Origin: Eledone cirrhosa
Lineage: Eukaryota
Length of the DNA: 64,000 nt
Direction of reading: 5' to 3'
Assembly (NCBI GenBank): GCA_964016885.1
Contig: OZ024740.1
Span: forward strand, 167,276,001-167,340,000
Positions within the stretch are counted from its first letter, which is position 1; every line of letters begins with the position of its first letter. Below the pieces are notes generated by a model. That model was not told the DNA's origin. It made no database searches and saw only the letters and a program-made list of their open reading frames with translations. The position numbers were made by a program, and so were the translations under genes. Below, piece by piece: positions 12,100-64,000 of this stretch.

Positions 12100-12146
<47 letters not shown>

Positions 12147-12164
12147 TATTAGAGGTGCAAATTA

Positions 12165-30089: not shown

Positions 30090-30272
30090 AGGAGGATTGG
30101 CAGCATCGGTAGAGGTCGGACGCCATGCTTTGACACATTGAGTTACGGCCCTTGCCATTCTGAGTTCAAATCCCGCCGGGGTTAACTTTTCCTTTCATCC
30201 TTACGGGGTCGATAAAATAAAGTACCAGTAATACACTGGTGTAATAGCTGGCCTTGTGCTAAAAGTAGAAAC
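30090..30272 (+). mobile_element. SINE of the same family
   Basis: gagttcaaatcccgcc...cctttcatccttacggggtcgataaaataaagtaccag...gtagaaac followed by an ATT tail. Confidence 0.85.
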
Positions 30273-36163: not shown

Positions 36164-36347
36164 GGTCGGTGAATTGGCAGTATCGGTAGCGGGTTGGACG
36201 CCATGCTTTCTAGCATAGTTATGTTCTTTACAGTGTGAGTTCAAATCCCGCCGAGGTTAACTTTGCCTTTCATCCTTACGGGGTCGATAAAATAAAGTAC
36301 CAGTAATGTACTGGATAATTGCTGGCCTTGTGCCTAAAGTAGAAACA
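36164..36347 (+). mobile_element. tRNA-derived SINE with a Nin/Deu-like central domain and a perfect 20-bp TSD
   Basis: A-box-like tggcagtatcgg, B-box gagttcaaatccc and core gcctttcatccttacggggtcgataaaataaagtaccag. gttaatgattatgcagtata is duplicated at 36144-36163 and 36348-36367. Confidence 0.88.
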
Positions 36348-36529: not shown

Positions 36530-37915
36530 GTTTTTGGCAAATGAAATGGTATCCTAGACGCAAGCTGGGATAATGTGAGGCTAGCAGATAAGGGTGAAGT
36601 TGTTAAAGCCCAACGAAGTTGCTCAGACATTTCCATTGTTCTGACAGATACTGACTGGATGTTCCGAATGTGCCTATATGGATATGAACCGTGTTAATTA
36701 ATTAGTTGAACGGGTGTTGACGGGGGCACTCATCAACAAATGTTGGTTTGCTTCGCATAAGGCAATCAATGTAGAATCAATAGGATTTAATAAGGAGTAA
36801 GAATAGAGAAAATTAGACTAGAGGGTGAGCAAGTTAGAAAGATAGAAGAGGCTTTTAAGAAAGGTAACGCAATTGAACAGCTTGCAGCGAGACATTGACT
36901 CTCGAACAATTCTTTAACGTAAAGCTTGAAGTCTGCGTTGTCAAAGCTAGGATGCGTGCTCATAGACAGGAATGGACGAAGCCATTCGATGAACCCAGAT
37001 TATGGTGCACCATGACGGGCGCATGTTACCCGATCCCAAGCGAGTTTGTGCGGATTTTCAACAATAATTCGCTCAATTCTTCAGGAGCAGAAGTGGAGTG
37101 GTTCACAAGATAAATGTTAGTCCTCATTTCGAAGGTGTGCACACCCTAAACAGATATATCCTTGATAATCTCCAGCTCATGCGATACATCAAAGAGAATG
37201 TGGCTCATGAACCTGGCGAATGTGGGATCCTGATCAACTTAAATCAATCGTTATCTTTCGATAGGGGTCAACCATGGCTACCCGGTGCCAGTCCCCAAGT
37301 AGCAGGTGTCGACCTAGTTTTCAGAGGTTGGATTGTTGCAATACTCAGTGACATCTCTGCTGTGGTTAGAGTGAACGGTTACATTTCGGAATCAAATAAC
37401 ATCAATTGCTCAATCTGCCGAGGTTTCCACTGCCAATCGGTAGAAACTGCACCTTGTCGTTCTATAGATGGTGAGCGGCATGTAAAAGTGACGACGTTCT
37501 TGGGGAGATTCTGTGCGTCGACGATAATTATCTAGCTAATATTTTCCGGAGAACTTTCAGGCCAGAATCCATCGTGAGATTTCCCCACCACCTTCCTTTA
37601 GCTGAGGCGGACAGGCTGTTTTCATCAACCTTCTGGCCATGGCTAAGGCGATCCTATGATGGACATGTCTACATGGGTTGAAGACAAACAGTTTCTTCTC
37701 CTGGAAAAAGAATAGCACCAGTGTACAGCCTGTTCTAAGTATGCGCCTATAGATTGAAGGAGGACAACTAGAAGGGGCATTTCCCATATTGGGGAATTTA
37801 TTTTTTCGAATATTTACGTTTTCTTTGGTTTCTTAAAACGTTTTACACGCCAAAACACAGACTCTACCGTATTATGCCGTCCCGTAACATACTGTGCCGT
37901 GCTTAATGCATTCTT
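36530..37915 (+). mobile_element. Old, multiply internally deleted relic related to the Tx1 element at 49607-55630
   Basis: Ordered patches match ORF2 and the 3' UTR. Examples: LEQFFNVKLEVCVVKARMRA vs LDQFFNAKHEGCVVRARVRA; DNLQLMRYI...LINLNQSLSFDR vs DNLHLMRYI...LINLDQSKAFDR; 37561-37690 vs 55071-55210; ttttacacgc...taccgt in the 3' UTR. Confidence 0.85.
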
Positions 37916-46578: not shown

Positions 46579-49500
46579 TTGAAAGAACAAGTACCGCTTT
46601 TTTACTGATAGATTGTTCATCTCAACATTCAGATTTAAAATTTGCCAATGCGAAATCAATATTATGAAAATGTGAAAATATTTTATTATAGTACAATTAC
46701 TTTCAATTGAATGTTATATAAATTTGCGGGAAAAGTTTACGTAGAAAATACAAAACAAAACAACTATACCAAAGAAAGTCTTTGAAAAAAATATCATTTA
46801 AATTATATCTTCGTTGCTCAGCTTCCATAAATATGTCTATGTCCTTTTTTTTTATATTTTCTCTTTTGGCATTTAGAGAGCGGTGGACTGAATTATTTTG
46901 TCTTTTTAGTTCCTGAATTTACGTTCTGAATTGACTCTATGCTCTCGACAAGCACACTGGAAAAATATCGAATAGTTCGCTAGTGTCTCTCGAAGAGATG
47001 TCAATTGATACTATACTAACAATGGGACAGGATATCTTTGTAAATGATGATCTAAAGTTGTTTGTTAGATTACATCAGGATATATGAATATATTTACATG
47101 AGATATTCATTATTGTTGATCAAACAAAGAAGGTTGTAATTAATCTAATCACAATAATTATGATTTGAAACCTATGGACAAGGTTACATATTATTTCGAA
47201 AAAAACATTTGACTAAATAATCCCATATCTTGACAATTGCTTCTTGTATTGGTCCTGGGAGGAAAATATGCAAAGTGGATCGCAGTGGAATTTGATATTA
47301 GAAAGGAATAGCAGCACCGACACTTCACGAAACATATTCTCTGTGAAATCTTATGATTGTAGCAATCTCCCTACAATAATTTTAAAAAGGTTTCTGACAT
47401 AGCCTCACGTTCACACATTCGGGACGAGTGAACTGTTTATTTTATAAATCATAATGAAAAAGATATATTCGATCTCGGCAGAACTTCAATCAAATGGGCT
47501 GTAATTAAATATTACTCAGCAAATTTTTCCGTTGCTTTGTCGGTAAAAATTCAGCTAATAGTTTTGTAGCTGTTGATTATTTCAGTATATATAGTGAATG
47601 AAAGAGATGACGAAAGCGTCATGTGTCGGACTAAATACCTCCCAATATTGAGTGATTGCAAGTCTCCCCGCTCATTTCTTTAAAATTTGTCTTGTCATTC
47701 TAGAGCTTATTAGCACCAGTAATGTACTGATATTGAGGTAAATAGCTGTAATGTAGTATCTCCTTAGAAATGAGTTCTCATAAGCAAAACATGGCTATTT
47801 GCTTAAAACTCGTGGTTTCGTGTTTGATCCTACAGCTCAGTAATATAGCATGCATTTTCTGCTATGAGACCAACTGCAAAAGCCCGCCAGATGGTCGGTA
47901 TCCGTTTTGGCGTGGAAGATATAAACTATCACCCGTTTTAGCATCATTCTCCGGCTAGTGTGAAGGTGTAGAGGACTTCACTCTATTATGTCTCTAATTA
48001 AACGATAATGCAAGAATTGTTGTTCATTCATTACATTTACCTACCAATCTCCTGGGTGACAGCACTTCTCGTCTAGGTCATAAGAAACGGAATTCAGTTA
48101 CCAATTGAAAGGAATTTCTTTTGTTTATGACTCATGCATAGAATATAATACTGATGGTGTTAGATTGAAAGAATCATTCGAGCATCAACGAAAAGTACCA
48201 GTCAAGTACTGAAGTCGATTTAATTGCACTGTCAATCTCCTTCAAAATGTAATGTGCCAGACTAGAACGCATGAACTTAAATTCACATTTTACGATGTGT
48301 TCTAAGCGACATAAGAAGTGACACGCCGTTGGAGTACGATATTATCTTATTAATATTATCGCTAAAAACATTCTTTCTTACCGCAAACAAACACATTATT
48401 ATTCAGTCACACATACATACAACACTCTTGTTTTAAATGGGCTCCAATATAAAACAAGATAACCCTAAAGAAAAATATAACTACGCTACAATTATGTTTT
48501 GTTTCTAGTAAAAAGCCTTGGTTGATTCTAACTATGCAAGCAATTAAAATTAACAACTAACTCCATTTTTTTTAATGAAGTAGCATATTCAAACTGTCGA
48601 GAAACATTATAGTTATTTATGGTCCCTGACTTATGACTGGAGTGTAAAACTGTCAATAACATCGACACACTCAATAAAGTTGCTCGCTTTATAGGAAGGG
48701 AAAATGTGGGAAAGTGTTTGACGTTTTGTTCAATGTCAATGGTATTTTTATTTTGCCCTGAACTATTTTTATATGTCTTGTGTTAAAAACAGGGAATACA
48801 TGTACAGACACCCTTTCTATCACTCACACTCTCATTCTGCCTTCATATCTATGTGTATTTCTCTATTTCATTCACTCCTCTTTATTTCTTTATTGCAATA
48901 GTTCGACAGTTGTTTCTATTTTTCTGGAATCATACTCCCTTTTTATGTTTTGTTTTCGTCTCCAATGTTTCTATAATTGCATCCTTTGTCGTATTTCTTT
49001 CTCTCTTCACACACTTAAATGTTTATACACACACAAGTAAACACGCACACATGCACATACTTAAATCAGCACAGACATTGGCGAAGCAGGCAAAAATCCA
49101 GAGTAACAATAATTACTATTTAGCCTTAATAAAATGAATATTGTATATGTGTATGGGGATGTAGGGGGAAGGCTTGCGCGTGTCTGTTCCTGTGCATGTA
49201 TGTGTGTACATGTGTGTGTGTACACATATACATAAATAGAATACATTGAGTGCACCCATGATAACTACCTACAAACAGAGTATTGATAAATATGCATATA
49301 TGAAGAACCATACACACTCAAAAATAAATATTTGTACGATATGATACGTATAAAAAAAAATATGTGTTCTTTCGTACAGAATACTATCAGTGTCTTTCTG
49401 TGTGTATCTGTGCTGGCTCGTGTTTGTACGTTTGGACGAATAAAAGTCGTAACAGGTTACCTCTGACGAATGTCTACTTACAAACTTCTAACAAGATATC

Positions 49501-49819
49501 CTGGCTAGTATTTTGTCTTTTTTCTTTAAAATCCATTTTATAATTCTGTCCAACAGCAAACATCGTTATCTTCATCATCAACATCATTATTATTATTATT
49601 ATTATTGAATGCCATGGTTGACGGAGGCTCGGCTCTGTAAGGTATAGTAATTTTTAACCGTTAAAACAATTGTAAATTGTTTAAAACTTGAACCAAATTG
49701 TTGATAAAGACACCCTCCTCCTCGTGAGAGGGGTCTTTCTGTCCGTTATTTGGCCCTTCGGGGTTAAATAACCAGTTATTGGGGTTTTGTACCCAAAATT
49801 TCATTTTAAACAAAAAAAC

Positions 49820-51913
49820 ATGGCTACCAAAAAGAAATTTCATACGTCACTCCCACTCATTCCGTCTTCTTCTTCCTCAATCATCACTACAGCAGAGAGA
49901 AGATTGTCTCTCTCCCTCCCTTCTTTAAATGTGTCTCTCTCCCTCCCTTCTCTTTCGCAAGCGACGAAAGAAAAGAAAAGTCTCGTGCAAAGCGTGCAAG
50001 GTTTCTCCACGACGACGACGACAGCGACGAAACAGGTGTGCGGGAAATACGAAAACCCAGTTCATTCGTCTGACGTCAGGAATAATAGCAGTAGCAGCCG
50101 TAATAACAACAGCAACAGTGACAATGAAAACAACAGTAGCAGCCGCAACAGCATCACCAGCAGCATAAACAACAACAGCATTATCAGCAGCAACACCAAC
50201 AACAACCACAGCAACAGCGGCGGAGGCAGTAGTCGTAGTACCTGCAGCAACAAAAGTACCAGCAGCTCTGACGACAACAACAACAGCAGAGAAAAACCAA
50301 TCTCATTTGCAGGTATTGCGAAAAACTTGGAAACAATCCTCATAACAAATGAGGAATTAGAGGAAGCGAAGAAGATGGTGACAAAGAACGGACACCGAGC
50401 AATCTGCAAGGCAGCGAAAAATTTTTTCGAAACCCAAGAGCACTGTACGGTCACGTACCGTACAGTAAGTACAAAATCCCGTAGGGTGGAAAGAGCCACA
50501 GAGGCCCAAATACAAAAAGCCTTGGGGTCTGTGTGGCAGAGGAAAACGCACATCACCCGAGGCAAAAAATACGCCACCGTAGACGTACTTTTTGCCACAC
50601 CCCAGGAGGCAAAGGCCCAATCAGTAGTGACCCTAAGGAGCGAGGAAATGGTGTTGGTGCCCTCCTACTGCGGGCAAAAAATTGTGAGGGTCAAACTGAC
50701 CCACGTCCCCCCCGGAATGACCCCTTCTTGGCTGGCCGCGTCTGTCCTCGTCGGAATCGAGGACAAAACAACTGTACTGCAAGTACAGAAAAAAGTAAGA
50801 GAAGATTGGGTCGGCTCCTCCATTGAGATGCTAATCCAAACCAACCAGGAGTGCATCGAAGCTATCCCGGATGTGATAGACTTCGATAACGGCACTCAAC
50901 TGCCCATAAGTGTTGAGGGCAAACGCCCGAAATGCTTTCGCTGTGGATCGAAGACTCACCTCAGGGCCTTCTGCAACGAGAAGACCCTGAGAAAGGAGAA
51001 AACCCCCCTCCTTCCGAATCCGGCTCCACGGCTACCAGCAACAGGACAAGCGGCAACCAGGAACGATAGGTCCGTGGCACCCATACCCACGCCACGGAAA
51101 TCAAAAACAGCAGCAGCAGTGGAAATATTAACAACAACAACAGCAATACCAAATGCAGCTGCAACAGAGACTCCAGTGCAAACATCACCAACAACAACAA
51201 GTGAAAGAGTGGAGCTGGTACCCCTCCCCGACCTCACAGAATCAGACATGGAGTGTGAGGTGGGAGAGGGATGGCAAAAGGTCGCAAGAAGGCACAAACG
51301 CAGAAGCAGCGCATCGTCGCCTTTGAAAAGGGAGGAAAGAAATGAGAAAAGGGTAAAGTCTACTGCAAAGAGACCCACAGCAGCAACAACACCAACACCA
51401 TCACCACCCACACTAGCACCACCATCACCACCGGCGACAACCCCACCGCCAACAACACCTTCAACTCCACCACCACAAGCACCAACATCGCAAACACAAC
51501 AACAAAACACACACACCCAGCAACAACGACAAGAAAATAGCAGAACCACACCCCACCCCCAGAAAAACAAATGCACGGCAATAAATACACACAACAAGAA
51601 ACTAATGACTTACATAATTGAACACACAGACATTTCACAACAGGACTACATAATACCAGCACCAATCAAAACGCCAACTAACATAAGACTGCTAAAAATA
51701 GCACAGAAACAATACACAAACATTAAAACGAAATTCCCCAACGCAGTTGGTGATTTCAGGGACCTAGGAGGAACCATCAATCGAAGAGTATACTCAGACA
51801 TTCTCTTAGAAGAGCCGACGACCAGCCGAAGGGACGATTCAACGGTCCCTTCACCAGACGATCAAGTGAAAAGGGATGTAAAAACCATCCCTCCTCTACC
51901 AAAAGTACGGTAA
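49820..51913 (+). CDS. Tx1-like ORF1 nucleic-acid-binding (gag-like) protein, ~697 aa from the first ATG
   Basis: Open frame 49787-51913, with the first ATG at 49820 (aacATGg). Contains a CX2CX4HX4C zinc knuckle (CFRCGSKTHLRAFC), Ser/Asn- and Pro/Thr-rich low-complexity segments and a basic patch (WQKVARRHKRR). Lies directly upstream of the APE-RT ORF. Confidence 0.85.
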   Translation: MATKKKFHTSLPLIPSSSSSIITTAERRLSLSLPSLNVSLSLPSLSQATKEKKSLVQSVQGFSTTTTTATKQVCGKYENPVHSSDVRNNSSSSRNNNSNSDNENNSSSRNSITSSINNNSIISSNTNNNHSNSGGGSSRSTCSNKSTSSSDDNNNSREKPISFAGIAKNLETILITNEELEEAKKMVTKNGHRAICKAAKNFFETQEHCTVTYRTVSTKSRRVERATEAQIQKALGSVWQRKTHITRGKKYATVDVLFATPQEAKAQSVVTLRSEEMVLVPSYCGQKIVRVKLTHVPPGMTPSWLAASVLVGIEDKTTVLQVQKKVREDWVGSSIEMLIQTNQECIEAIPDVIDFDNGTQLPISVEGKRPKCFRCGSKTHLRAFCNEKTLRKEKTPLLPNPAPRLPATGQAATRNDRSVAPIPTPRKSKTAAAVEILTTTTAIPNAAATETPVQTSPTTTSERVELVPLPDLTESDMECEVGEGWQKVARRHKRRSSASSPLKREERNEKRVKSTAKRPTAATTPTPSPPTLAPPSPPATTPPPTTPSTPPPQAPTSQTQQQNTHTQQQRQENSRTTPHPQKNKCTAINTHNKKLMTYIIEHTDISQQDYIIPAPIKTPTNIRLLKIAQKQYTNIKTKFPNAVGDFRDLGGTINRRVYSDILLEEPTTSRRDDSTVPSPDDQVKRDVKTIPPLPKVR

Positions 51914-51948
51914 GTGGTCTTTCCCATCTTTTCCACTCTATTTTAAAC

Positions 51949-54900
51949 ATGACCTCACTCAGAATAGGCAGCATAAATGCGCGTGGCTTGGGGTCGTCAT
52001 GGAAGCAGGGTCACCTGCTCAACGACCTCAGGTCACTAAACATAGATGTAGTGGCCATCAGCGAGACCAGAATCTCCGAAGCACGGGCCTTCGTACCGAT
52101 CTTCGGCGGCTACGATGTGTACGCATCTCCCAGCCGTCCTGGATCGGGTGGAGGAGTTGCTGTGCTTTTTCGGAGAGGTTTGGATCTCGCCATACGGGCC
52201 ATCTTCCTGGACCCAGAGGGTAAGCTGGTGGTGCTGGACGTGACCAGCGGAGACGGGCAAGCTTTCAGGCTAGTGGCCGTCTATGCCCCGACAGGAGCAG
52301 GGCGGCCTGATTTCTTCCGGCGTCTGGAGACCTTTCTTGGAACGTCCCGCTCTTTAGTGTTAGTGGGCGACTGGAACGGGATCTTAGATGCACGCTGGGA
52401 CTGTGTGGGATTAGCGGATAGGGGTGGAGGGTGCAAGAGCCTCACCAACCTGCTCAGGCGTTTTGAACTGTCTGACAGGTACCGATTGGATTTCCCGAAT
52501 GTGCCAATGTGGACTTGGACAAACCGCATAGGGTCATCCAGATCATATCTAGATAGAGTATTTTGTAGGGAAATAGATAGGTCTAGCATAGGCTGTCCAC
52601 AATTCAAGATAGTCAGCTACACGGACCACAAATTCGTGATCTGTGTGCTTGACTTAGATAGGCTTCATAGACGAGGACCCGGCTACTGGAAGCTAAACGC
52701 GTCCTTACCAGCGCGCAAGGCCTACAGAGACCGGATTAGCGAACTAGTTAAGCGGGCGTTGACGGGGGCCATCGTCAACAACAAGTGGTGGTTTGCTCTG
52801 AAAAGAGCGATTAGAATAGAATCGATTAGGTTTAGTAAGGCTTTAGCAATAGAGAAAAATAGAGCAGAGGGAGAACTAGTTAGAAAATTAGACGAGGCGC
52901 TTAGCAAAGGCATTGCGACCGACGTGCTTGCGGCGAAATTGGCCCTTGACCAATTCTTCAATGCAAAGCACGAAGGCTGCGTTGTCAGAGCTAGGGTGCG
53001 TGCTCTCAGACACGAGGGGACGAAAGCCGTTCAATGGGCCCGAGTGGCGGAGGCGCGTCGTGGCAACAAAGCCACGATCCGGTCTTTGGTGGACCACGAC
53101 GGGCGCATGCTACTCGATCCCGGGCAAATGTGTGAAGCTTTTCAGCGACACTTCGCTCAGCTGTTCGGGGGCAGCGGGGGGCCGGGTAGAGGGATGGACT
53201 TTAGTGTCTACCTCGACGGACTGCCGCGGCTCTCGGCCACTGAGGCGAAGTGTTGCGAAAAGCCGATAACAGCCGCTGAAGTAAGGGAGGCAATGACTGG
53301 CTGCACAAGGGGTAAATCGCCTGGTTTGGATGGTCTGCCCTATGAACTTTACGTACAGATGCCAGACTTGTTCGGAGGCCTCTTGGCGGACGTCTACTGC
53401 AACTGGCAACAGAACGGGAGAATTCCCAGTTCTGTGAGCCGAGGAGCGGTGGCACTGCTGAGAAAGGATCCGAACAAGGGGGATAACATAGACAATTTCC
53501 GGCCCATAACTCTGCTAAACACAGAGTTTAAGATTTTGGCCAAGGTGCTAGCAAAGAGGTTGGCGCTTGTCGTTGGTGGTCTGGTGGGAGAGGCGCAGAC
53601 ATGCGCCATTCCCGACAGATCCATCCACGACAACCTCCACCTCATGCGATACATCGTAGAGAGGGTAGCTAGGGAACCTGGCACGGGTGGGTCCTTGATC
53701 AATTTAGATCAGTCGAAAGCTTTCGATAGGGTCGACCATCGTTACCTAGCGGCAGTCCTGAGGGCGGCTGGCTTTGGGCCCGTCTTCAGAGGCTGGATCG
53801 CTGCCATGCACAGCGACATCTGCTCTGTGGTGAGAGTGAACGGTCACCTGTCGGAACCGTTCAACATCATGCGCTCGGTCCGCCAAGGATGTCCCCTCTC
53901 GTCCCTCTTGTACGTATTGACTCTCGAGCCATTACTGCACAAACTGGAGACGTTGAGGGGAGTCCCGCGCGAACTAGGATGCGGAAGATCCGTGTCAGCA
54001 TATGCGGACGATGTCACCGTAGTGGTGTCGAACGCCAAACACATCGAGGCGATCGGCACTACACTAAGAGAATACGAAGCGGTGACAGGAGCAATGATCA
54101 ACCAGGAAAAGTCAGTGGGCCTGCAGCTCGGCACCTGGAGAGGCAGGTCCATGCCGTCCAACAGCGTCGTCGGGCGCTGGACGGACGGACCGGTTAAATT
54201 GCTAGGGGTCTGGTTCGGTCCGGACCTCCAGACGGACAAAAACTGGGACGAGGTGACGAGCAGGGTGGCTTCTCTCACCCAGAAATGGGCGGAGAGGAAG
54301 CTATCCCTGAAAGGTCGAGCGGAGGTGGCTAACGCGTACATCGCGTCTGTCATCTGCTACCGCCTAACCGTCGTACCTTGTCCTAAGCCTCGCCTGACTG
54401 CGCTGGAGCGTTTGCTCTTTCGCTTTTTGTGGAAGGGACGTGCTCCGATGGTCAGGCGGTCCATCTGTTGTCAACACCCGCTACGTGGAGGGCTGGGCAT
54501 GCCGTGGCTGATGATGCGCAGGCACGCGCTCAGGCTACGACATCTCCACCTCTTCCTCGACGGTGATCAGGTGTGGTCGCCGTTTGCTAGACGCGTTTTT
54601 CCCCAGCTCGTTTCCTTGACGGAGCTGCAGTCCTGGGTCAAGCAAAGACCGAGAGGGAGCGCCTGGAGACTGGAATGTCTTCAGGCGCTCACAGCCCTCG
54701 ACCAATCGGGCAATGTGATCGGTGGAAACTCCACCTCGGCGTTCTATAGAGGATTAGTGGAGGGGAAGAGCGACGACGTACTTGGGGAAACTCTAGGCGT
54801 CGACGAAAATCAACTAGCCAATCTCTTCGGAAGAACTTTCGGGCCAGGGCCTATGGACAACTTCCAGAAATCTCTGGCCTGGCAGTGCTACCGAGGAGCC

Positions 54901-55368
54901 TTGCCAGTTCGGGATAAACTCTACAGGCATGGAGGTGCCGTCAGCCGGGCATGTCCGAGATGCGCGCAGGGCGACGAAACCGTCCTGCACGCACTCGTCC
55001 AGTGTCCGAAAATTGCTGACTTGTGGGTTTATGTCGAACACCTGCTGTCGCGTTTAGGACGGATCCAGCTATCATCTGAGTCTATCGTGAGGATTGCCCC
55101 GCCCTCCTCCTTTAGCCGGGAAGGGCAGGCAGTTTTTATCTGTCTGGTGGCCATGGCGAAAGAGATAGTATGGTGGACACGTTTGAAAGGGCTGAAGACG
55201 AGCACTTACCTCTTCGGTGATGCTCTGATTGACTTTTTCAAATTTCATTTGAAAAGGAAAATCAGAGTAGAGAAGGAAGTGCTCTCTTCCCAGCATTTTG
55301 TTGAAAGATGGGTGAGAGAAGCAAGAATGGCCCGAGTGAATGGGCCGACTCTGAGTATATATCTGTAA
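51949..55368 (+). CDS. Tx1-like ORF2: APE endonuclease, reverse transcriptase and C-terminal zinc finger (1139 aa)
   Basis: APE motifs SINARGL, ISET, VYAP, GDWN, SYLDR, TDH. RT motifs KSPGLDGL, FRPITLLNTEFKILAK, DQSKAFDRVDH, VRQGCPLS, YADDV. C-terminal CPRC...ETVLHALVQC. The frame is uninterrupted. Confidence 0.95.
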   Translation: MTSLRIGSINARGLGSSWKQGHLLNDLRSLNIDVVAISETRISEARAFVPIFGGYDVYASPSRPGSGGGVAVLFRRGLDLAIRAIFLDPEGKLVVLDVTSGDGQAFRLVAVYAPTGAGRPDFFRRLETFLGTSRSLVLVGDWNGILDARWDCVGLADRGGGCKSLTNLLRRFELSDRYRLDFPNVPMWTWTNRIGSSRSYLDRVFCREIDRSSIGCPQFKIVSYTDHKFVICVLDLDRLHRRGPGYWKLNASLPARKAYRDRISELVKRALTGAIVNNKWWFALKRAIRIESIRFSKALAIEKNRAEGELVRKLDEALSKGIATDVLAAKLALDQFFNAKHEGCVVRARVRALRHEGTKAVQWARVAEARRGNKATIRSLVDHDGRMLLDPGQMCEAFQRHFAQLFGGSGGPGRGMDFSVYLDGLPRLSATEAKCCEKPITAAEVREAMTGCTRGKSPGLDGLPYELYVQMPDLFGGLLADVYCNWQQNGRIPSSVSRGAVALLRKDPNKGDNIDNFRPITLLNTEFKILAKVLAKRLALVVGGLVGEAQTCAIPDRSIHDNLHLMRYIVERVAREPGTGGSLINLDQSKAFDRVDHRYLAAVLRAAGFGPVFRGWIAAMHSDICSVVRVNGHLSEPFNIMRSVRQGCPLSSLLYVLTLEPLLHKLETLRGVPRELGCGRSVSAYADDVTVVVSNAKHIEAIGTTLREYEAVTGAMINQEKSVGLQLGTWRGRSMPSNSVVGRWTDGPVKLLGVWFGPDLQTDKNWDEVTSRVASLTQKWAERKLSLKGRAEVANAYIASVICYRLTVVPCPKPRLTALERLLFRFLWKGRAPMVRRSICCQHPLRGGLGMPWLMMRRHALRLRHLHLFLDGDQVWSPFARRVFPQLVSLTELQSWVKQRPRGSAWRLECLQALTALDQSGNVIGGNSTSAFYRGLVEGKSDDVLGETLGVDENQLANLFGRTFGPGPMDNFQKSLAWQCYRGALPVRDKLYRHGGAVSRACPRCAQGDETVLHALVQCPKIADLWVYVEHLLSRLGRIQLSSESIVRIAPPSSFSREGQAVFICLVAMAKEIVWWTRLKGLKTSTYLFGDALIDFFKFHLKRKIRVEKEVLSSQHFVERWVREARMARVNGPTLSIYL

Positions 55369-55669
55369 ACTAAAGGTGGAAAACTGGGAGAGGGCACTTG
55401 CCTTGGTGGTCAGGGTCATTGTGGCTTTTTACTGGGCTTTCTCCACAAATGTCCCTCCGAAGTCTCCCCCCTATTGGGGAATTTTTCATTGTTATTTTCA
55501 TTGTTATTTTTGTTACATCCTCTGTTTTTGTTTTTTTACACGCAGAAATGCCCATTTGTACCGTCCTGCATTGTCCTGCACTGTCCTTAATGTCTACTTT
55601 ATGTAAACCCTTGTGGTTAATAAAGAAATCATTATTATTATTATTATTATTATTATTGTTATTGTTATT

Positions 55670-58600
55670 CCTTGAATCTCAGTCATTGATGTTGGTTAAC
55701 TGGAAAGTCCGTTGGATTGAATATCAAACCACTACCTGCAGCCTCAGATATTCAGGACGTATCGGAGGGTTCTTGCCGTTCCAAGCAAGCATGCCTTTTG
55801 AAGCGTTCCAAAAAGCGTGAAGGGGCCGATTTTCTTTAACCATCCCTGGAAACCTTTGGAGATAGTCCCCAGTGCGCCTATGACAATCGGGATCACTTTG
55901 ACTTCATGGCAGTTCCAAATCCTTTTCACCTCCCACTTTAGGTCCTGGTATCGGTTAATTTTCTCCCTCTCCTTCTCTTGCACTCTCGTGTCGAACGGGC
56001 AGGCCACATCCACAATCAGGCACGATCTTTTTTCTTTGTCCACAACCACCAGGTCAGGTCTATTGTGTTCCAGTTTTTTGTCCGTCTGTATCCTAAAATC
56101 CCACAGCACCTTCACCTGACTGTTCTCCATCACCGCCTCTGGCCTATGCTCATACCATTTCTCAGAATGTGGTAGATTGTTTACTTTGCACAGGTGCCAG
56201 TGGATCACCCTGCCCATCACATCGTGTCTCCAGCCCTTATAGTGGGTCTGGGCTAGGTGTTTACACTCGGACACAATGTGAGCCACAGTCTCCTCTCTCT
56301 CTCCACAGATCCTGCACAGTGGGCTAGCCTCCTCCTTGTAGATATGGTGCTTCAACCACTTCGTTTTGAGGGCCTGCTCCTGCGCAGCCATTAGCATTCC
56401 TTCTGTAGCCTTTTTGAGGTCTCCTCTTCTCAACCAGTTCCATGTCTGTGGATCTCTAAATTCAGTTTTCTCAAAGAAGGTACTATGAAGGGATTTTCCC
56501 TTAAGGCTGCTCTTCCTCCTTGATGTTATTTCCTCCTTGGGTATCCCCTGGCCTACTCTCCCCTCCTTCAGTACAGCTCTGAGCATTGGCTCCTTACTAT
56601 AGGTCACGTATTTGTATAGGTTGTTTTTCTCCATCTGAACACAGTCCTCTATGCTGATAAGACCTCTTCCACCCTCAGATCTCCTTAGGTAGAGTCTATC
56701 GACATCGCTCCTCTTGTGGAACATGTTGTAGATAGTCAATAGCTTCCTAGTCTTCCTATCCATTTCTTTTTGTTCAGCAACATTCCATCTCAGAATTCCC
56801 GCACTGTACCTAATAATAGACACAGCTCGGGAATTTACTGCGCTTATGGCATTTCTGCTGTTCAGATGTGACTTCAATACGCTCCTTACTCTCCGAATGT
56901 ATTCAGTTCTTAACAATTCCTTCATTTTTTTGTTCTTTATGCCATCAGCCTCCAGAACGCCCAAATACTTGTATCCTTCCTCAGAGTCAATTTCCTTTAT
57001 CATCTCACCTGTTGGTATCTGGATCCCGTTACTTCTGCTCAACCTACCCCTCCTCATCACAATGACTCCACATTTACCAATACCAAACTGCATACATATA
57101 TCACTGCTGAAAATACGGACAGTGTCAACAAGCACATCCAACTCCTTCTCACTTTTCCCGAAGAGCTTAAGATCGTCCATGAAGAGGAGGTGATTGATGG
57201 TAAGCTCTCCCCTTCCCAACTTGTATCCTGCTCTCACTTTTCGCAGCATAATGGTCAAGGGCATCAGGGCAAGGACAAACAACAGAGGGGACAGGCTATC
57301 TCCCTGGAAGATACCTCTCTTGATCTTCACGCTTCCCAAGGATACTCCAGTTGATGTCAACTCTGTCTCCCAGGACCCCATACTCCTGCCCAGCAACTCT
57401 CTGATGTTATCTGCCACCCTGAAGATCTCCAGGCTTTTGGTGATCCAGGAATGAGGCACCATGTCAAATGCCTTTCTGTAGTCTATCCATCCCATGGCAA
57501 GATCAGTGTGTCTCCTCCTGCAATTCCCCATTACCATCTTATCAATAAGCAACTGGTCCTTTGTACCACGTGACTTCTTTCGGCATCCTTTCTGTTCGTC
57601 CGGCAACAAGTTGTTTGTGTGGAGGTGATGGTAGATTTCCTCAGACACAATGCTCGTCAACAGTTTCCACATTACGGGCAGACATGTGATAGGTCTATAG
57701 TTGGTAACATCATTACCCTTGATTCGGTCTTTCATTATCAGAACTGTGGTACCTTTTGTCAACCACTCTGGCACCTCACCCGACACCAAGCAGTCATTGA
57801 ACATGGCCGTCAGCTTCGGGTGGAGGGATGTTAAATGTTTAATCCAATACCCCTGCACACCATCTGGGCCTGGTGATTTCCAGTTGGTTAGTTTTTTGGC
57901 TTGCCCCTTAAGAGTTTCAACTGTGATACTCAAATCAGTCTGTTGCTGTGCCTGCTCACCGATCTCCCTCTGTACTGTCTCAATCCACCCTGCCTGGGCA
58001 TTGTGTCTAACATCCTGCTCCCATATTCCTCTCCAGAATGTTTTAGCTTGTTCCGCCCCAGGGATCAAGTCGGTGCCTCTTTCTTTCCCCTCAAGCTGTC
58101 CAAACAGCATCTTCTGGTTGTTGTCGAACATGCGGTTCTGTTTATACTGACTGACTCTGTTCTCGTATCGCCTGATTTTGGCACTCTTTGCTACAATGCG
58201 TTGCTTCAATTCCTCTATGATAATATTTAGCTTTTTACTCCTAGTTTTGTATTTTATTTCCAGTCTATTTTTAGTGCCTATGTTTTTTAGTGTCCCATTC
58301 AGTAGTGACTCAAGCTTTCCTATGTCATTTCTCATTTCCCCGATTTGCCCACTCAGTCGCTTCTTCCACCACGGCTCTGCTCTTTCTTGTCTGTTGTTTC
58401 CTCTCGCTTTTATACCAAGTAGTTTCCTCACCGTATTTGCTGTTGCTTTGAGGATATTGTTGCACTGGTGAAGACTCCTCGCCTCAAGGTATGGGATGAC
58501 TTTGTTTACCTTAGCTGTTGTTTCTTTTAACTTTTTCCTGTCTACAAATCTTAGGTTCATAGGTCTCCCACTATCATTGTTCAACTCATCTACCACTAAA

Positions 58601-59843
58601 TTTAGGATGTCAACCGAATCTTGTCCTAGCCCGTCAGCATTCATCTCCTCAGTGGCCGTATCTCTGTTCCAGGTATTATTTATCTCAGTATTCAGATCAT
58701 TGTCCGCTTCGGGTGGTTCCTCCGCTCTCAGGACCTCCTCACCTTCATTTCCCGCCGGCTCGCTTGTCTGGCATACTACACCCGCCATCTCCAAGCCATT
58801 CTCTCTGCTCAGTTCCTCCAGTTCCAGCTCGCCTATCCACCCATTAGTTCTTATTACCCGAGCCTGCCCGGCCAATTTTTGTTCATCTAATTTAAATAAA
58901 CCAATCTCGTTCCAGATGTTATGCATCCGTCTCCTGTAGCCCCTCTCCTTGGGGTTACTTTTCAGGTAGCATTGCATAACAGTTCTATTCAATTCTTTCG
59001 TCCAGTTGGTTCTGGCCCCTTTCCTTCTTCTTCTTCCTCCAACATCAGCAGTATTTCGTTGACAGTCAGGTTCCTGCTGCTGAGCCAGGGGGCACCTGTT
59101 GGGTGAGAGTCTGTCACATGACGTTCTAGTCTCCATTTCACCGTTATTCGAACTGTTTATGTTCGATATTTAAACACTCTTATCGAGGATTGGCGAATGT
59201 ATGTTTACATAGCCATCTGTGGATCCGCCATCCCACTTGGCCCTTGTGTGGCATTATCACCACGCTGTATACGGACACACATAAACAAACAAACACACGG
59301 GCAGAAAGGGCCCCAAAAATGAATAAGCATAAGTTTCATTGTAATGTAGTATTCGAATGTCTGACTTAGTTTTTGTTTTTTAAGTTTTACTTTTTCCCCC
59401 CTCTTCTCTGTCCGTCCGCCTGCCTCTCTCTTCATTCTTATTTTCTTTACGTTTTGGGGGTTTCTTTTTTTGTTTTTGTTTTTCTCTGTTTTTCTCGTTT
59501 TTTACTGTTGTTGCTGTGCTGCTTTTGTTGTTTATTTTTTCTTTTTTCTTTTGAGTCTATCTATATATTTTGATGCCTTCCTCTTTTTTAGCAGTAGGGA
59601 TTCTATAATGTGGTGGCAGCAGCCAGCTAAAAGAAGAAGTGGGAGACTGGCGGCGGTAGCGATACTGAGACAGTGGTGGTGGTGATGTCGATACCGAGAT
59701 AGTGGTGGCGGTGATGTGACCGTATTACTGTAGCGATGGTGCTGTAGCGGTGGCAGCAGTGAAGGAGTGAAGGGGTGGTGGCGGCGGTGATGGGATAATG
59801 GTTGTAATGATGGCCGTAGTGATCGGTGGTGGTTTAGTGTACA

Positions 59844-59844
<1 letters not shown>
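55670..59844 (-). mobile_element. Full-length, apparently intact R4/Dong-type (RLE) non-LTR retrotransposon flanked by (TAA)n
   Basis: Single 1130-aa RT-RLE ORF. A ~75-bp 3' UTR runs into (TAA)n (55631-55669). The ~700-bp 5' region is homologous to the 5' region of the neighbouring copy and ends at (TAA)17 (59845-59895). Confidence 0.9.
55744..59136 (-). CDS. R4/Dong-type polyprotein: RT, CCHC zinc knuckle and PD-(D/E)xK restriction-like endonuclease
   Basis: RT motifs WKSPGPDG, YRPITCL, WIDYRKAFDMVPH, GIFQGDSLSPLLF, LFMDDLKL, YKYLG. Zinc knuckle CRICGEREETVAHIVSEC followed by RHD. RLE motif RPDLVVVD...IVDVACP...EKINRY. The frame is uninterrupted. Confidence 0.95.
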   Translation of the reverse strand: METRTSCDRLSPNRCPLAQQQEPDCQRNTADVGGRRRRKGARTNWTKELNRTVMQCYLKSNPKERGYRRRMHNIWNEIGLFKLDEQKLAGQARVIRTNGWIGELELEELSRENGLEMAGVVCQTSEPAGNEGEEVLRAEEPPEADNDLNTEINNTWNRDTATEEMNADGLGQDSVDILNLVVDELNNDSGRPMNLRFVDRKKLKETTAKVNKVIPYLEARSLHQCNNILKATANTVRKLLGIKARGNNRQERAEPWWKKRLSGQIGEMRNDIGKLESLLNGTLKNIGTKNRLEIKYKTRSKKLNIIIEELKQRIVAKSAKIRRYENRVSQYKQNRMFDNNQKMLFGQLEGKERGTDLIPGAEQAKTFWRGIWEQDVRHNAQAGWIETVQREIGEQAQQQTDLSITVETLKGQAKKLTNWKSPGPDGVQGYWIKHLTSLHPKLTAMFNDCLVSGEVPEWLTKGTTVLIMKDRIKGNDVTNYRPITCLPVMWKLLTSIVSEEIYHHLHTNNLLPDEQKGCRKKSRGTKDQLLIDKMVMGNCRRRHTDLAMGWIDYRKAFDMVPHSWITKSLEIFRVADNIRELLGRSMGSWETELTSTGVSLGSVKIKRGIFQGDSLSPLLFVLALMPLTIMLRKVRAGYKLGRGELTINHLLFMDDLKLFGKSEKELDVLVDTVRIFSSDICMQFGIGKCGVIVMRRGRLSRSNGIQIPTGEMIKEIDSEEGYKYLGVLEADGIKNKKMKELLRTEYIRRVRSVLKSHLNSRNAISAVNSRAVSIIRYSAGILRWNVAEQKEMDRKTRKLLTIYNMFHKRSDVDRLYLRRSEGGRGLISIEDCVQMEKNNLYKYVTYSKEPMLRAVLKEGRVGQGIPKEEITSRRKSSLKGKSLHSTFFEKTEFRDPQTWNWLRRGDLKKATEGMLMAAQEQALKTKWLKHHIYKEEASPLCRICGEREETVAHIVSECKHLAQTHYKGWRHDVMGRVIHWHLCKVNNLPHSEKWYEHRPEAVMENSQVKVLWDFRIQTDKKLEHNRPDLVVVDKEKRSCLIVDVACPFDTRVQEKEREKINRYQDLKWEVKRIWNCHEVKVIPIVIGALGTISKGFQGWLKKIGPFTLFGTLQKACLLGTARTLRYVLNI

Positions 59845-59895
<51 letters not shown>

Positions 59896-59896
<1 letters not shown>

Positions 59897-62800
59897 TTTG
59901 AGTCTCAGTCATTGATGTTAGTTAACTGGAATGTTTGTTGAAATTAATATCAAGCCACTACCTGCAGCCTCAGATATTCAGGACGTATCGGAGGGTTCTT
60001 GCTGTTCCCAGTAAGCATGCCTTTTGAAGCGTTCCAAAAAGCGTGAAGGGGCCAATTTTCTTTAACCATCCCTAGAAACTTTTTGAGATAGTACCTAGTG
60101 CGCCTATGACAACTTCATGGCAGTTCCAAATCCTTTTTATCTCCCACTTTAAGTCCTGGTATCGGTTAATATTCTCCCTCTCCTTCTCTTGCACTCTCGT
60201 GTCGAATGGGCAGGCCACATCTAAAATCAGGCACGATCTTTTTTCTTTGTCCAAAACCACCAGGTCAGGTCTATTGTGTCCAGTTTCTTGTCCGTCTGTA
60301 TCCTAAAATCCCACACACCTTCACCTGATCGTTTTCTATCACCGACTCTGGCTTATGCTCATACCACTTCTCAGAATGTGGTAAATTGTTTACTTTGCAT
60401 AGGTGTCAGTGGATCACCCTGCCCATCACATCATGTCTCCAGCCCTTATAGTGAGTCTGGGCTAGGTGTTTACACTCGGATACAATGTGAGCCACAGTCT
60501 CCTCTCTCTCTCCACAGATCCTGCACAGTGGGCTAGCCTCCTCCTTGTAAATATGGTGTTTCAACCACTTCGTTTTGAGGGCCTGCTCTTGCGCAGCAAT
60601 TAACATTCCTTCTGTAGCCTTGTTAAGGTCTCCACTTTTCAACCAGTTCCATGTCTATGGATCTCTGAATTCAGTTTTCTCAAAGAAGGTACTATGAAGG
60701 GATTTTTCATGAAGTTGCTCATCCTCCTTGTTGTTATTTCCCTCATCGACATCCCCTGGTCTATTGTCCTCTCCTTCAGTACATTTCTGAGCATTGGCTC
60801 CTTACTATCAGTCACGTATTTGAGTAGGTTGTTTTTCTCCATCTGAACACAGTCCTCTATGCTGATAAGATCTCTTCCACCTTCAGATCTCCTTAAGTAG
60901 AGTCTATCGACATCATTCCTCTTGTGGAACATGATGTAGATAGTCAATAGCTTCCTAGTCTTCCTATCCATTTCTTTTTGTTCAGCAACATTCCATTTCA
61001 GAATTCGCGCACTGTACTTAATAATAGACACAGCTCAGGAATTCACTGCACTTATGAGATTCCTACTATGTAGATGTGATTTTAATACGCTCCTTATTCT
61101 CCTAATGTATTCAGATCTTATCAATTCCTTCATTTTTTTGTTCTTGATGTCATCTGCCTCCAGAACATCTAAATATTTGTATCCTTCTTCAGTGTCAATT
61201 TCCTTTATCATCTCACCTCATGGTACCTGGATTCCGTTACTTCTGCTTAATTTACCCCTCTTCGTCACTAGGACTCCACACTTACTAATACCAAATTGCA
61301 TACATATATCATTAATGAAAGTACGGACAGTGTCAACAAGTACATCCATCTCCTTCTCACTCTTCCCAAAGAGTTTAAGATCGTCCATGAAGAGGAGGTG
61401 GTTGATGGTAAGTTCTCCTTTTCCCAACTTGTACCATGCTCTCACTTTTCGCAGTATAATGGTCAGGGGTATCAGGGCAAGGACAAACAACAGAGGGGAC
61501 AAACTATCTCCCTGAAAGATACCTCTCTTGATCTTTACGCCTCCCAAGGATTCTCCACCCGATGTTAACTCTGTTTGCCAGGACTTCATACTTTTGCCCA
61601 ACAACTGTCTGATGTTATCTGCTACCTTGAAAATCTCTAGACTTTTGAGAATCCAAGAATAAGGTACCATGTCGAATGCCTTTTTGTAATCTATCCATCC
61701 AATGGCAAGACCAGTGTGTCTCCTCTTGCAATTCTTCATTACCATCTTATCAATGAGTAATTGGTCTTTTGTCCTTGAGAACTTCTTTCGGCACCCTTTC
61801 TCTTCGTCCGCTAACAAGTTGTTTATGCGGAGGTGATGGTAGATTTCCACATTACGGGCAGACGTGTGATAGATTTACCGTTGGTAACATCATTACCCTT
61901 GATTCGGGCTTTTATTACCAGAACTGTGGTACCTTTTGTCAACCACTCTTGTACCTCACTCGACATCAAGCAACCATTGAACATGGTTGTCAGTTTGGGG
62001 TGAAGGGATGTTATATTTTTAATCCAATACCCCTGCACACCATCTGGGCCTGGTGATTTCCAGTTGGTTATTTTTTTGGCCTGCCCTTTAAGAGTTTCAA
62101 CTGTGATACTGAAATCAGTTTTTGGTGTGCTTGTTCACTAATCTCCTTTTGTACTATCTCAACCCACACTACCTGATCATTATGTTCAACATCCTGCTCC
62201 CATATTCCTCTCCAGAATGTCTTAGTCTGTTCCGCCTCAGGGATCAACTCGTTGCCTCTTTCTTTCCCTTCAAGCTGTCCAAACAACATCTTCTGGTTGT
62301 TGTCAAACATACGGTTCTGTCTATACCGACTGACTCTGCTCTCATACCGCCTAATCTTTGCACTCTTTGCTACAATGCGTTGCTTCAGTTCCTCTATGAT
62401 GATATTTAGCTTTTTCCTCCTAGTTTTGTACTTTATTTCCAGTCTAATTTTACTGTCTTTGTTTTGTAGTGTCCCATTCAGTAGGGACTCAAGCTTTCCA
62501 GTGTCATTTCTCATTTCCTTGATTTGACCTTTCAGTCCTTTTTCTTCCACCAAGGTTCTGATCTTTCTTGTTTGTTGTTTCCTCTCGCTTTTATGCCAAG
62601 TAATTTCCTCACCGCATTTGCTGTTGCTTTGAGGATATAGTTGCATTGAAGGTTCCTCGCCTCAAAGTATGGGATGACTTTGTTTACCTTAGCTGTTGTT
62701 TCTTTTAAGTTTTTCCTCTCTACACATCTCAGGTTCATAGGTTTCCCACTATCATTGTTCATTTCATCTACCACTAAGTTTAGGATATCAACCAAATCTT

Positions 62801-64000
62801 GTCCTAGCCCGTCAGCATTCATTTCCTCAATGGCCGTATCTTTGTTCCAGCTGTTATTTATTTCAGCATTCAGATCATTGTCTGCTTCGGATGCTTCCTC
62901 CGTTCTCTCAATCTCTTCACCATTTCCCACTGGCTCGTTTGCCTGGCATATTCCACTCTCCATTTCCAACCTAATCTCTCTGCTCAGTTCCTCCAGTTCC
63001 AACTCTCTTATCCATCCTTTAGTTCTTATTGCCCGAGCCTGCCCGGCCAATTTTTTTCATCTAATTTAAATAGACCAATATCGTTCCAGATGTTATGCAT
63101 CCGTTTCTCCTTTGGGTAACTCTTCAGGTAACATTCCATTACAGTTCTATTCAATTCTTTCGTCCATTTGGTTCTTGTCCCTTTCCTACTTCTTCTTCTT
63201 CTTCCTCCAACAGCAGCAGTATTTGGATGACAGCCATGTCCTTGCTGCTGGACTAGGGGGCGCTTGCTGGGTGAGAGTCTATCACATGACGTTCAAGTCT
63301 CCTCTTCACCGTTATTCGAACTGTTTTAGGTTCGACATTTAAACACTCATATCGAGGATTGGTGAATGTATGGTTACATAACCACCGGTGATTTTATCAC
63401 CCCAGTGATTTCATCACCCCCGGTGATTTTAGAATGGCACCATGACGCTGTAGACGAACATAAATAAACAAATAAATAGATAAAAACTTGAAAAAATAAA
63501 CATAAGTTTCATTGTAATGTTTGAATGTCTAACTTAGACTTTTTTGTTTGTTTGTTTGTTTTTTTCCTTTACGTTTTTCGTTTTTCAAGGCCAGTAACAT
63601 CGGTTACTAGTGTTGTTGTTGCTGCTGCTGCTGTCTTTGATGTTTTGTTTTTGTTGTTGGATTTGTTCTGTTCTATAATCTTTCGACTTGTTGCTTATTA
63701 TTATTATATTATAGTTTAGATTTGACATTGTTTAAACTAAACATTTTCAGAGATATACAACAACAATAATTATTTTGGTGTTGTTGTTGTTGATGTTAGC
63801 TGTTTGACCGGGTCACTAAATCAGTCTATTTATATCTTTGGATACCTTCCTCGCTTCTATTCATGTGTAGTGGCACTACTACCACCCCTCTCGTAACAGG
63901 AGGTAGTGACGGAATAGTGGTGGTAGCGTTGATGTAGTGGTGGCGGTGGTGATTGGATAGTAGTACTATAGTGATGGTGTTGCTGTAGCCGTTTGTTTGT
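59896..64000 (-). mobile_element. Degenerate second copy of the same R4/Dong family (frameshifts, stops, lost start codon), running off the window end
   Basis: Collinear nucleotide similarity to 55670-59750 along its length. The ORF is broken into fragments (62532-63050, 62068-62646, 61218-61850, 60639-61031, 60406-60642, 60072-60260). The ATG position reads GAG near 63303. It has the same 3' UTR followed by (TAA)17. Confidence 0.92.

What the first reader, a model, noticed from the sequence alone, without database searches (positions are those of the whole stretch)
49583..64000. An (ATT/TAA)n landing pad shared by two unrelated retrotransposon classes in opposite orientations
Seen: the order is (ATT)7 - Tx1(+) - (ATT)~13 - Dong1(-) - (ATT)17 - Dong2(-), so every visible junction is the same trinucleotide repeat. 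The two intact elements converge and share one ~39-bp tract as their common tail. Known: Dong-type R4 elements target (TAA)n using an RLE, and many Tx1 families are sequence-specific through their APE. Inference: two different endonucleases have converged on the same microsatellite and insert into each other's tails. This would build a growing array, with the old Dong2 first and Dong1 and Tx1 added in its tail.
Basis: partly seen in the sequence, partly recalled or inferred. Interest (0 to 1): 0.72.

Follow-up and report, generated by a model that had tools for sequence, protein, structure and literature searches.

The report
Two retrotransposons share one ATT microsatellite
Two unrelated, very young families of jumping genes sit end to end in short ATT repeats, here and at hundreds of other places in this animal genome, facing opposite ways in every junction examined, likely because each family's own cutting enzyme picks the same repeat from the opposite strand and leaves repeat on both sides as a new landing site; the ATT target appears new for one of the two kinds.

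Summary
Layout confirmed: (ATT)7 - L1/Tx1-type APE LINE(+) - 39-bp tract - Dong/R4-type RLE LINE(-) - (ATT)17 - older Dong(-). The stack runs on to six elements over 24.9 kb. Both families sit in (ATT/AAT)n genome-wide: 1,550 of 1,604 Tx1 5' ends follow (ATT)4; 29 of 29 near-complete and 13 of 14 truncated Dong copies follow (AAT)n. Tx1 splits the ATT run of an unrelated repeat that also occurs empty, and a 10-copy array carries 30-51-bp host duplications. Orientation is fixed (424 of 424 junctions); there are 513 tail-to-tail pairs and 0 same-strand Tx1-to-Dong-head joins. Corrections: Dong1 lacks about 335 nt of 5' UTR; there is no preference for each other's tails (22/75 versus 12/40 unselected tracts); the Tx1/Dong1 order is unresolved; reads did not cover this junction; only 10 of 25 truncated Tx1 copies keep upstream ATT. 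Dong-TAA, Tx1-microsatellite targeting and opposite-strand sharing (TRAS/SART) are known; an ATT-targeting L1/Tx1-type family was not found in my searches. The scan noted this pattern six times elsewhere in this genome and once in another. New variant of a known kind.

The parts
49586..49606 (+). (ATT)7 upstream of the Tx1-type element; likely the target-site duplication; preceded by single-copy host DNA
   Evidence: flank 49380-49585 has 1 match in the genome
49607..55630 (+). Full-length 6,024-bp L1/Tx1-type LINE (here TxA), member of a young family with 1,604 exact 5' ends and 3,430 exact 3' ends in the genome
   Evidence: nearest other copy differs at 18 sites
49632..49642 (+). GCTCTGTAAGG motif at +26; similar motifs lie at +24 to +40 in two other Tx1 5' types and in the Dong 5' end; possible internal promoter or splice donor (untested)
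   Evidence: pattern built after seeing the sequences
49820..51913 (+). ORF1, 697 aa, ZCCHC3-like RNA-binding domains plus a CX2CX4HX4C knuckle
   Evidence: sequence; ESM Atlas features 0.91-0.93 to CCHC/ZCCHC3 clusters; Pfam found no family at cut-off
51949..55368 (+). ORF2, 1139 aa: APE endonuclease, reverse transcriptase, C-terminal zinc finger
   Evidence: Pfam PF03372, PF00078, PF13966; best PDB hit LINE-1 ORF2p E 2e-52; endonuclease aligned to L1 EN
55631..55669 (.). Shared 39-bp tract, (ATT)9 GTTATTGTTATT; the GTT-bearing end is Dong1's family tail read on the other strand
55670..59844 (-). Dong1: R4/Dong-type RLE LINE, coding-intact, lacking about 335 nt of the family's 5' UTR (full length about 4,510 nt)
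55744..59136 (-). Dong1 ORF, 1130 aa: N-terminal Myb-like lead, reverse transcriptase, CCHC knuckle, PD-(D/E)xK restriction-like endonuclease
   Evidence: Pfam RVT_1; best PDB hit R2; AlphaFold model pLDDT 92.6 matches R2 C-terminus, TM 0.68; Myb lead 0.86 only
59845..59895 (.). (ATT)17 = (AAT)17 on the Dong strand; tail of Dong2 and 5' flank of truncated Dong1
59896..64000 (-). Dong2, older decayed copy (86.5% to Dong1, frameshifted); runs on to about 64,300, then old Tx1 fragment, Dong fragment, second Tx1 and (ATT)25 end the 24.9-kb stack at about 74,446

Best explanation
An APE-encoding L1/Tx1-type LINE and RLE-encoding Dong/R4-type LINEs occupy the same (ATT/AAT)n microsatellites in opposite orientations across this genome, likely because each enzyme independently nicks the repeat on its own strand and primes reverse transcription there. 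Shown: family-wide flanks, fixed polarity, host-sequence duplications, and filled and empty versions of one ATT-bearing host repeat. Inferred: the Tx1-type enzyme would nick the AAT strand and the Dong enzyme the ATT strand; each insertion leaves repeat on both sides (target duplication plus tail), so one site becomes two and stacks grow one element at a time. The two families meet because Dong and Tx1 ends make up a large share of all long ATT tracts, not because either recognises the other.
For: 1,550 of 1,604 Tx1 5' ends are directly preceded by (ATT)4 in phase; 114 of 119 3' ends continue ATT. Dong: (AAT)10-35 precedes 29 of 29 copies that are full-length or cut within the 5' UTR and 13 of 14 copies truncated further in. 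Empty versus filled: an unrelated repeat with an internal ATT run appears empty in 6 of 40 unselected tracts, and with Tx1 inside that run and both host flanks continuous in L118 and the L156-L187 array. A 10-copy Tx1 array has nine spacers (51 bp seven times, 36, 30) that are all suffixes of the interrupted host flank, and a last tract of 18 bp; its nine full copies fall in at least four clades with nearest relatives elsewhere, the oldest at the 3' end. Further interrupted duplications of 42 and 66 bp. Polarity: 214 of 214 Tx1 and 210 of 210 RLE junctions at 310 distinct tracts; 207 of these are 5'-side junctions, where a tail cannot force the result; 0 same-strand Tx1-tail to Dong-head joins genome-wide against 513 tail-to-tail. 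Pool: 23 of 40 unselected (ATT)7 tracts border one of these LINEs. Dong targets TAA and some Tx1 families target microsatellites (PMC3812793, PMC7998251, PMC4494074; passages).
Against: Only 10 of 25 5'-truncated Tx1 copies have ATT upstream; 7 are fused head to head to a truncated RLE element with no ATT, 3 abut other trinucleotide repeats, 5 abut other DNA (my count, after dropping full-length, chimeric, internally deleted or duplicated copies). In pure tracts the target duplication cannot be told from an element-borne ATT leader or tail. Tx1 copies look mosaic (few private sites but 12-20 differences to the nearest copy), so recombination could inflate the apparent number of independent insertions in the array. 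Left and right tract lengths show no clear asymmetry over 67 copies (median 8 and 9 units), so the nick position is not fixed by these data. No reads covered the window's own junction. No cleavage assay.
Confidence: 0.85

Rival explanations
1. The upstream ATT of full-length Tx1 copies is carried by the element's RNA (transcription starts in the donor's ATT run) and anneals to the target to finish the 5' junction, as shown for R2 elements that carry upstream 28S sequence; targeting would then rest partly on RNA/cDNA pairing, not only on the enzyme. This modifies the best explanation and does not remove the ATT target.
For: 96.6% of full-length 5' ends have ATT but only 10 of 25 truncated copies; 5' junctions are uniform (ATT|G); in the array, duplications of different length all end at the same ATT|G. 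PMC3774820 (abstract and passages) links upstream target sequence in the RNA to uniform 5' junctions in R2.
Against: The array keeps exactly (ATT)6 before all 10 copies although they come from several lineages, which a variable RNA leader would not easily give. No HDV-like ribozyme was found at the 5' ends (Rfam; own descriptor, which had no positive control).
Confidence: 0.3
2. The two families specifically recognise each other's tails or ends (mutual targeting).
For: 513 tail-to-tail pairs; 8 of 30 full-length Tx1 copies lie head to head with a Dong; in the small unselected sample 5 of 9 tracts with Tx1 on the left have an RLE tail on the right against 7 of 31 others.
Against: 22 of 75 Tx1 tails meet an RLE tail versus 12 of 40 unselected tracts (P = 1.0) or 7 of 31 tracts without Tx1 on the left (P = 0.63); 21 of 100 unselected tract ends precede a Dong end versus at most 15% of Tx1 tails. 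Tx1 also lands in SINE-like tails, its own tails and an unrelated repeat.
Confidence: 0.08
3. Neither ATT targeting nor stacking is real for Tx1: ATT is only a tail, and the joins come from recombination, selection or misassembly across microsatellites.
For: The window junction was not confirmed by reads. Deletions across junctions do occur (L127). Spacers of 21-51 bp between repeats are hard for short-read methods.
Against: In-phase 5' ATT at 1,550 sites; different tract lengths at the 100 tail-to-tail joins listed; single-copy left flank; host repeat contiguous on both sides of the insertion; array copies differ by 5-85 substitutions; no orientation exception.
Confidence: 0.05

Closest known systems
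Dong (R4 clade; Bombyx mori Dong, DongAg, DongBg, Darwinula Dong1/2)
   Same: Single ORF with RT and restriction-like endonuclease, (TAA)n target (PMC3812793, PMC7998251, passages).
   Different: Here in a current burst (11 of 20 selected copies have no private substitution over 4,175 nt) and sharing its target with an APE element. No 5' ribozyme detected, whereas Bombyx Dong has one (PMC3774820, passages).
Microsatellite-targeting Tx1-clade families: Kibi (TC)n, Koshi (TTC)n, crocodilian (TTCC)n/(TTTC)n families
   Same: Two ORFs, APE-RT-zinc finger ORF2, microsatellite target, tandem copies sandwiching a target duplication (PMC4494074 sections 14-15).
   Different: Target is (ATT)n, not a pyrimidine-only repeat; duplications reach 30-66 bp; relation to Kibi/Koshi not tested because no named reference sequences were available.
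TRAS1 and SART1 in (TTAGG)n telomeric repeats of Bombyx mori
   Same: Two non-LTR families insert in one short repeat in opposite directions (PMC7265360, passages).
   Different: Both TRAS and SART use APE enzymes and a telomeric repeat; here an APE and an RLE enzyme share a dispersed trinucleotide whose supply the elements themselves enlarge.
R1 (APE) and R2 (RLE) in 28S rDNA
   Same: Two endonuclease classes converged on one multicopy target (recalled; not checked here beyond R2 passages in PMC3774820).
   Different: R1 and R2 use separate unique sites in a gene (recalled); here the target is the same 3-bp unit on opposite strands and is regenerated by insertion.

Membership tests
L1 group (L1/Tx1) non-LTR retrotransposon | ORF2 with N-terminal APE, RT and C-terminal zinc finger | tested here: met
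   Pfam PF03372, PF00078, PF13966; catalytic N, E, Y, D-N, D and DH motifs present in the sequence and aligned to L1 EN (residue roles recalled)
L1 group (L1/Tx1) non-LTR retrotransposon | RT closer to L1 than to R2 among solved relatives | tested here: met
   L1 ORF2p E 2e-52 versus R2 E 1e-21
Tx1 clade | ORF1 with RNA-binding domains and a CCHC knuckle (feature recalled) | tested here: met
   CX2CX4HX4C in the translation; ZCCHC3-like clusters at 0.91-0.93
Tx1 clade | RT phylogeny groups with named Tx1-clade members rather than L1 clade | not testable with these tools
   43 homologues found carry no clade names; the label Tx1 is therefore provisional
Tx1 clade, target-specific families | More than 20% of flanks share one sequence type (criterion in PMC4494074) | tested here: met
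   1,550 of 1,604 5' ends
Dong / R4 clade | Single ORF with RT then CCHC and PD-(D/E)xK endonuclease, no APE | tested here: met
   model matches R2 C-terminus E 1.1e-10, TM 0.68
Dong / R4 clade | (TAA)n target | tested here: met
   29 of 29 and 13 of 14 5' flanks
Dong / R4 clade | Diverged N-terminal Myb/SANT-like domain without zinc fingers (PMC7998251) | tested here: inconclusive
   No Pfam hit; Atlas lead Myb_Rap1 0.86, below 0.9; no N-terminal C2H2 motif seen
Dong / R4 clade | RT phylogeny with named R4/Dong members (versus HERO or NeSL) | not testable with these tools
   Homologues unnamed
Dong / R4 clade | 5' HDV-like ribozyme (shown for Bombyx Dong, PMC3774820) | tested here: inconclusive
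   No ribozyme family in Rfam scan; own descriptor found none but had no positive control

The most novel reading that the evidence does not exclude
Sharing one microsatellite has turned two unrelated retrotransposon lineages into a linked system: the same GCTC-N1-3-G(T/C)AAG module heads three Tx1 5' types and the Dong 5' end because 5' regulatory sequence has been exchanged across endonuclease classes, and the ATT-free head-to-head fusions (7 of 25 truncated Tx1 copies) record both enzymes priming on opposite strands of one break and joining their cDNAs.
Probability: 0.12. Interest if true: 0.78.

Novelty: new variant of a known kind. Interest (0 to 1): 0.5.

Why it matters
It adds (ATT)n to the targets of APE-type L1/Tx1 elements, as far as my searches reach, and gives a clean natural case of an APE and an RLE enzyme reading the two strands of one trinucleotide repeat. 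Because insertion regenerates the target, it explains ordered LINE stacks and a large share of this genome's long ATT tracts (23 of 40 sampled border these LINEs). Both families have many young, coding-intact copies, so strand choice, long target duplications and the 5' joining step can be tested directly, and the pair offers two compact microsatellite-directed insertion enzymes. It also warns that ATT/TAA microsatellite markers in such genomes are often element junctions.

Tried and rejected
DNA search of the Tx1 3' end returned nothing because common words are skipped; pattern search worked. Read-based confirmation of the window junction or an empty allele: zero depth over the unique flank in 4 runs, so no verdict; the junction remains unconfirmed by reads. 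No paralogue or alternative haplotype of the left flank. Dating Tx1 against Dong1 by private substitutions: no difference. Mutual tail preference: rejected. 'Nick at the very start of the tract' from tract lengths: left shorter than right in 36, longer in 27, equal in 4 of 67 copies, so not established. 5' ribozyme: none found. Clade names from homologues, cluster members and Atlas: none. An apparent class of Tx1 copies truncated at position 2259 is a sister type with another 5' UTR and ORF1 on the same ORF2, not a truncation; it was dropped from the truncation count. Papers that gave nothing on ATT targeting: PMC9004415, PMC11203168, PMC3124438 (passages). The Tx1L endonuclease paper was not held.
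Full report
What is in the window. The plus-strand element has two open frames; ORF2 has APE, RT and zinc-finger domains and its best solved relative is LINE-1 ORF2p; ORF1 has a CCHC knuckle and resembles ZCCHC3-like clusters. The minus-strand element has one 1130-aa frame with RT; a model of its last 268 residues (pLDDT 92.6) matches the R2 zinc-knuckle and restriction-like endonuclease region (E 1.1e-10, TM 0.68). So the two enzymes are of different classes. The names Tx1 and Dong rest on domain layout and target; no named references were available for a tree. The organism was not given. Active Dong-R4 and L1-Tx1 families are reported in Octopus vulgaris (PMC13282606, passages and Table 1), which would fit, but I did not test this.

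Refinements. Dong1 is not full length: 29 of 29 other copies run on upstream, 25 of them to a start about 335 nt further. The GTT units in the shared tract are Dong1's family tail (AATAACAATAAC in 18 of 20 copies). Beyond the window Dong2 ends near 64,300 and is joined without ATT to an old truncated Tx1 (74-81%), then come a tail-to-tail Dong fragment, (ATT)10, a second full-length Tx1 (97.7%) and (ATT)25: six elements in 24.9 kb, all Tx1 plus and all Dong minus.

Is ATT a target or only a tail? Exact patterns give 1,604 Tx1 5' ends, 1,550 of them directly after (ATT)4, and 3,430 3' ends. Two more Tx1 5' types also begin after ATT runs. For Dong, (AAT)10-35 precedes all 29 copies above, and 13 of the 14 truncated copies whose 5' junction lay within 1.5 kb among the first 30 listed 3' ends. 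Host DNA gives the stronger test. An unrelated repeat with an internal, interrupted ATT run turned up empty in 6 of 40 unselected tracts; in L118 and the three-copy array L156-L187, Tx1 sits in that run with both host flanks continuous. At C1:441.08-441.14 Mb ten Tx1 copies (one cut at its 3' end) are separated by spacers of 51 bp (seven), 36 and 30 bp, each a suffix of the host flank, with 18 bp after the last. The nine full copies differ by 5-85 substitutions and fall into at least four clades; the most diverged is at the 3' end, three related ones come next, and the youngest lie 5' (chance of that order 0.0012 with classes drawn after the fact). I read this as repeated insertion with long target duplications and growth towards the 5' side. 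Against a simple reading: of 25 5'-truncated Tx1 copies (my count; full-length, sister-type, internally deleted and duplicated copies dropped), 10 have ATT upstream, 7 are fused head to head to a truncated RLE element, 3 abut CTT or ACT-type repeats and 5 abut other DNA. The likeliest cause is loss of the short upstream run when the 5' end joins without a duplication; an RNA-borne ATT leader is the main rival.

Orientation. Across 310 distinct tracts in the fetched loci, all 214 Tx1 junctions lie on the ATT strand and all 210 RLE junctions on the AAT strand; 207 are 5'-side junctions. These loci were chosen for holding an element end, which does not bias strand. Genome-wide there are 513 Tx1-tail/Dong-tail joins within 120 bp and none of Tx1 tail to Dong head on the same strand.

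Do they seek each other? Against random positions the excess is about 700-fold (513 versus 0.7). Against the pool of ATT tracts it disappears. There are 33,393 in-phase (ATT)7 ends (a lower bound on tracts) and 10,294 Dong 3' ends. 21 of the first 100 listed tract ends precede a Dong end, against at most 15% of Tx1 tails (513 over 3,430; the denominator comes from a longer pattern). With a second RLE family included, 22 of 75 Tx1 tails (75 of the first 100 listed, enriched for copies without the youngest 5' end) and 12 of 40 unselected tracts meet an RLE tail (P = 1.0). 23 of those 40 tracts border one of these LINEs. The families meet because their ends are much of the target pool. The samples come from the start of contig C1 only.

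Order at this site. Dong2 is decayed and a young Dong in an older Dong's tail is common (8 of 29). Tx1 has 4 private substitutions in 6,024 sites and Dong1 5 in 4,175 (P = 0.50), so either could be last. The left flank is single copy and reads gave no depth on it, so neither an empty allele nor the junction was seen.

Mechanism. Shown: flanks, polarity, duplications, filled and empty host repeat. From established target-primed reverse transcription: the first nick falls on the strand complementary to the RNA, so Tx1 would nick the AAT strand and Dong the ATT strand. Inferred: repeat is left on both sides, each insertion adds a site, and stacks grow stepwise. Untested: cleavage specificity, nick position, and the role of an RNA leader.

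Comparison with what is known. Dong targets TAA repeats in insects, molluscs and cnidarians (PMC3812793, PMC7998251; passages). Tx1-clade Kibi, Koshi and crocodilian families target TC, TTC, TTCC and TTTC, and tandem copies around a duplication are described (PMC4494074, passages and sections 14-15; figure and supplements not seen). TRAS1 and SART1 enter one telomeric repeat in opposite directions (PMC7265360, passages). R1 and R2 share 28S rDNA with different enzymes (recalled). I found no ATT-targeting L1/Tx1 family in nine full-text searches, but Kojima and Fujiwara 2004 was seen only as a citation and Repbase reports are outside the library, so this is a limited negative. Other papers opened: PMC4640811, PMC3774820, PMC9004415, PMC11203168, PMC3124438 (passages only). 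The scan has six earlier notes of this pattern in this genome and one in another; they agree but are not independent support.

A lead. The first 215 nt of Tx1 and Dong align better than shuffles on the same strand only (z 4.6 for TxA-Dong, 5.1 TxA-Dong2, 3.6 TxB-Dong, 7.8 TxB-Dong2, but 1.7 TxA-TxB; the best of 956 host windows scored 39 against 41 for TxA-Dong). A GCTC-N1-3-G(T/C)AAG motif sits at +24 to +40 in all four 5' types seen and not in 49 kb of host DNA (pattern made afterwards). Convergence on a host promoter or splice-donor signal is more likely than exchange.

Verdict. New variant of a known kind; interest 0.5.

Noticed in passing
window 49632-49642; L236, L143, L061 5' ends: GCTC-N1-3-G(T/C)AAG motif at +24 to +40 in three Tx1 5' types and in the Dong 5' end; weak same-strand similarity of Tx1 and Dong 5' UTRs.
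   Followed up: partly
L134, L145, L149, L152, L162, L172, L183, L082; also Dong2/old Tx1 joint about 300 bp past the window end: 5'-truncated Tx1 fused head to head to an RLE element with no ATT between: target deletion, later deletion or co-priming.
   Followed up: partly
G000:C1:441.08-441.14 Mb (L092-L097, L113): Ten-copy Tx1 array ordered by age with 30-51-bp host duplications; the 5'-most copy stops at element position 2114 yet is followed by the full 51-bp spacer.
   Followed up: yes
L135, L138, L143, L166, L177, L185 and others: Sister type TxB has its own 5' UTR and ORF1 joined to the same ORF2 from position 2259; a third type TxC (L061, L128, L182, L276) has ORF1 32% identical to TxA. 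ORF1/5' UTR swapping on one endonuclease.
   Followed up: partly
L057, L053, L112:about 9,000-12,400 of the extended stretch 82,037-85,394: A second RLE family (about 42% protein identity to Dong1) uses the same (AAT)n tracts in the Dong orientation.
   Followed up: partly
window 30174-30272, 36249-36346 and weaker copies; L244, L245, L260: SINE-like repeat ending AGTAGAAACA(ATT)n is a recurrent supplier of ATT tracts; its end resembles the Tx1 end, so Tx1 may mobilise it.
   Followed up: no
L252, L255, L258, L263, L264, L268: Abundant unidentified repeat rich in TA/TG with an internal GTCGTT(ATT)n run; 6 of 40 unselected tracts; host of the Tx1 arrays.
   Followed up: partly
window 36536-37565: Old Tx1 ORF2 fragments, 72-78% identical to the young copy, same strand.
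   Followed up: no
window 5788-5921: Degenerate TTAGGG-like interstitial repeats.
   Followed up: no
window 25576-25637 and 26120-26181: Identical flanks around two (AAT)4 runs 544 bp apart, a local duplication.
   Followed up: no
window 1987-2269 and 3146-3417: Two related tandem pairs of a 141-143-bp unit.
   Followed up: no
L226, L227, L229, L230, L234-L237, L239-L241: Eleven of 20 selected Dong1-family copies have no private substitution over 4,175 nt and 19 of 20 keep the full frame, pointing to current activity.
   Followed up: yes
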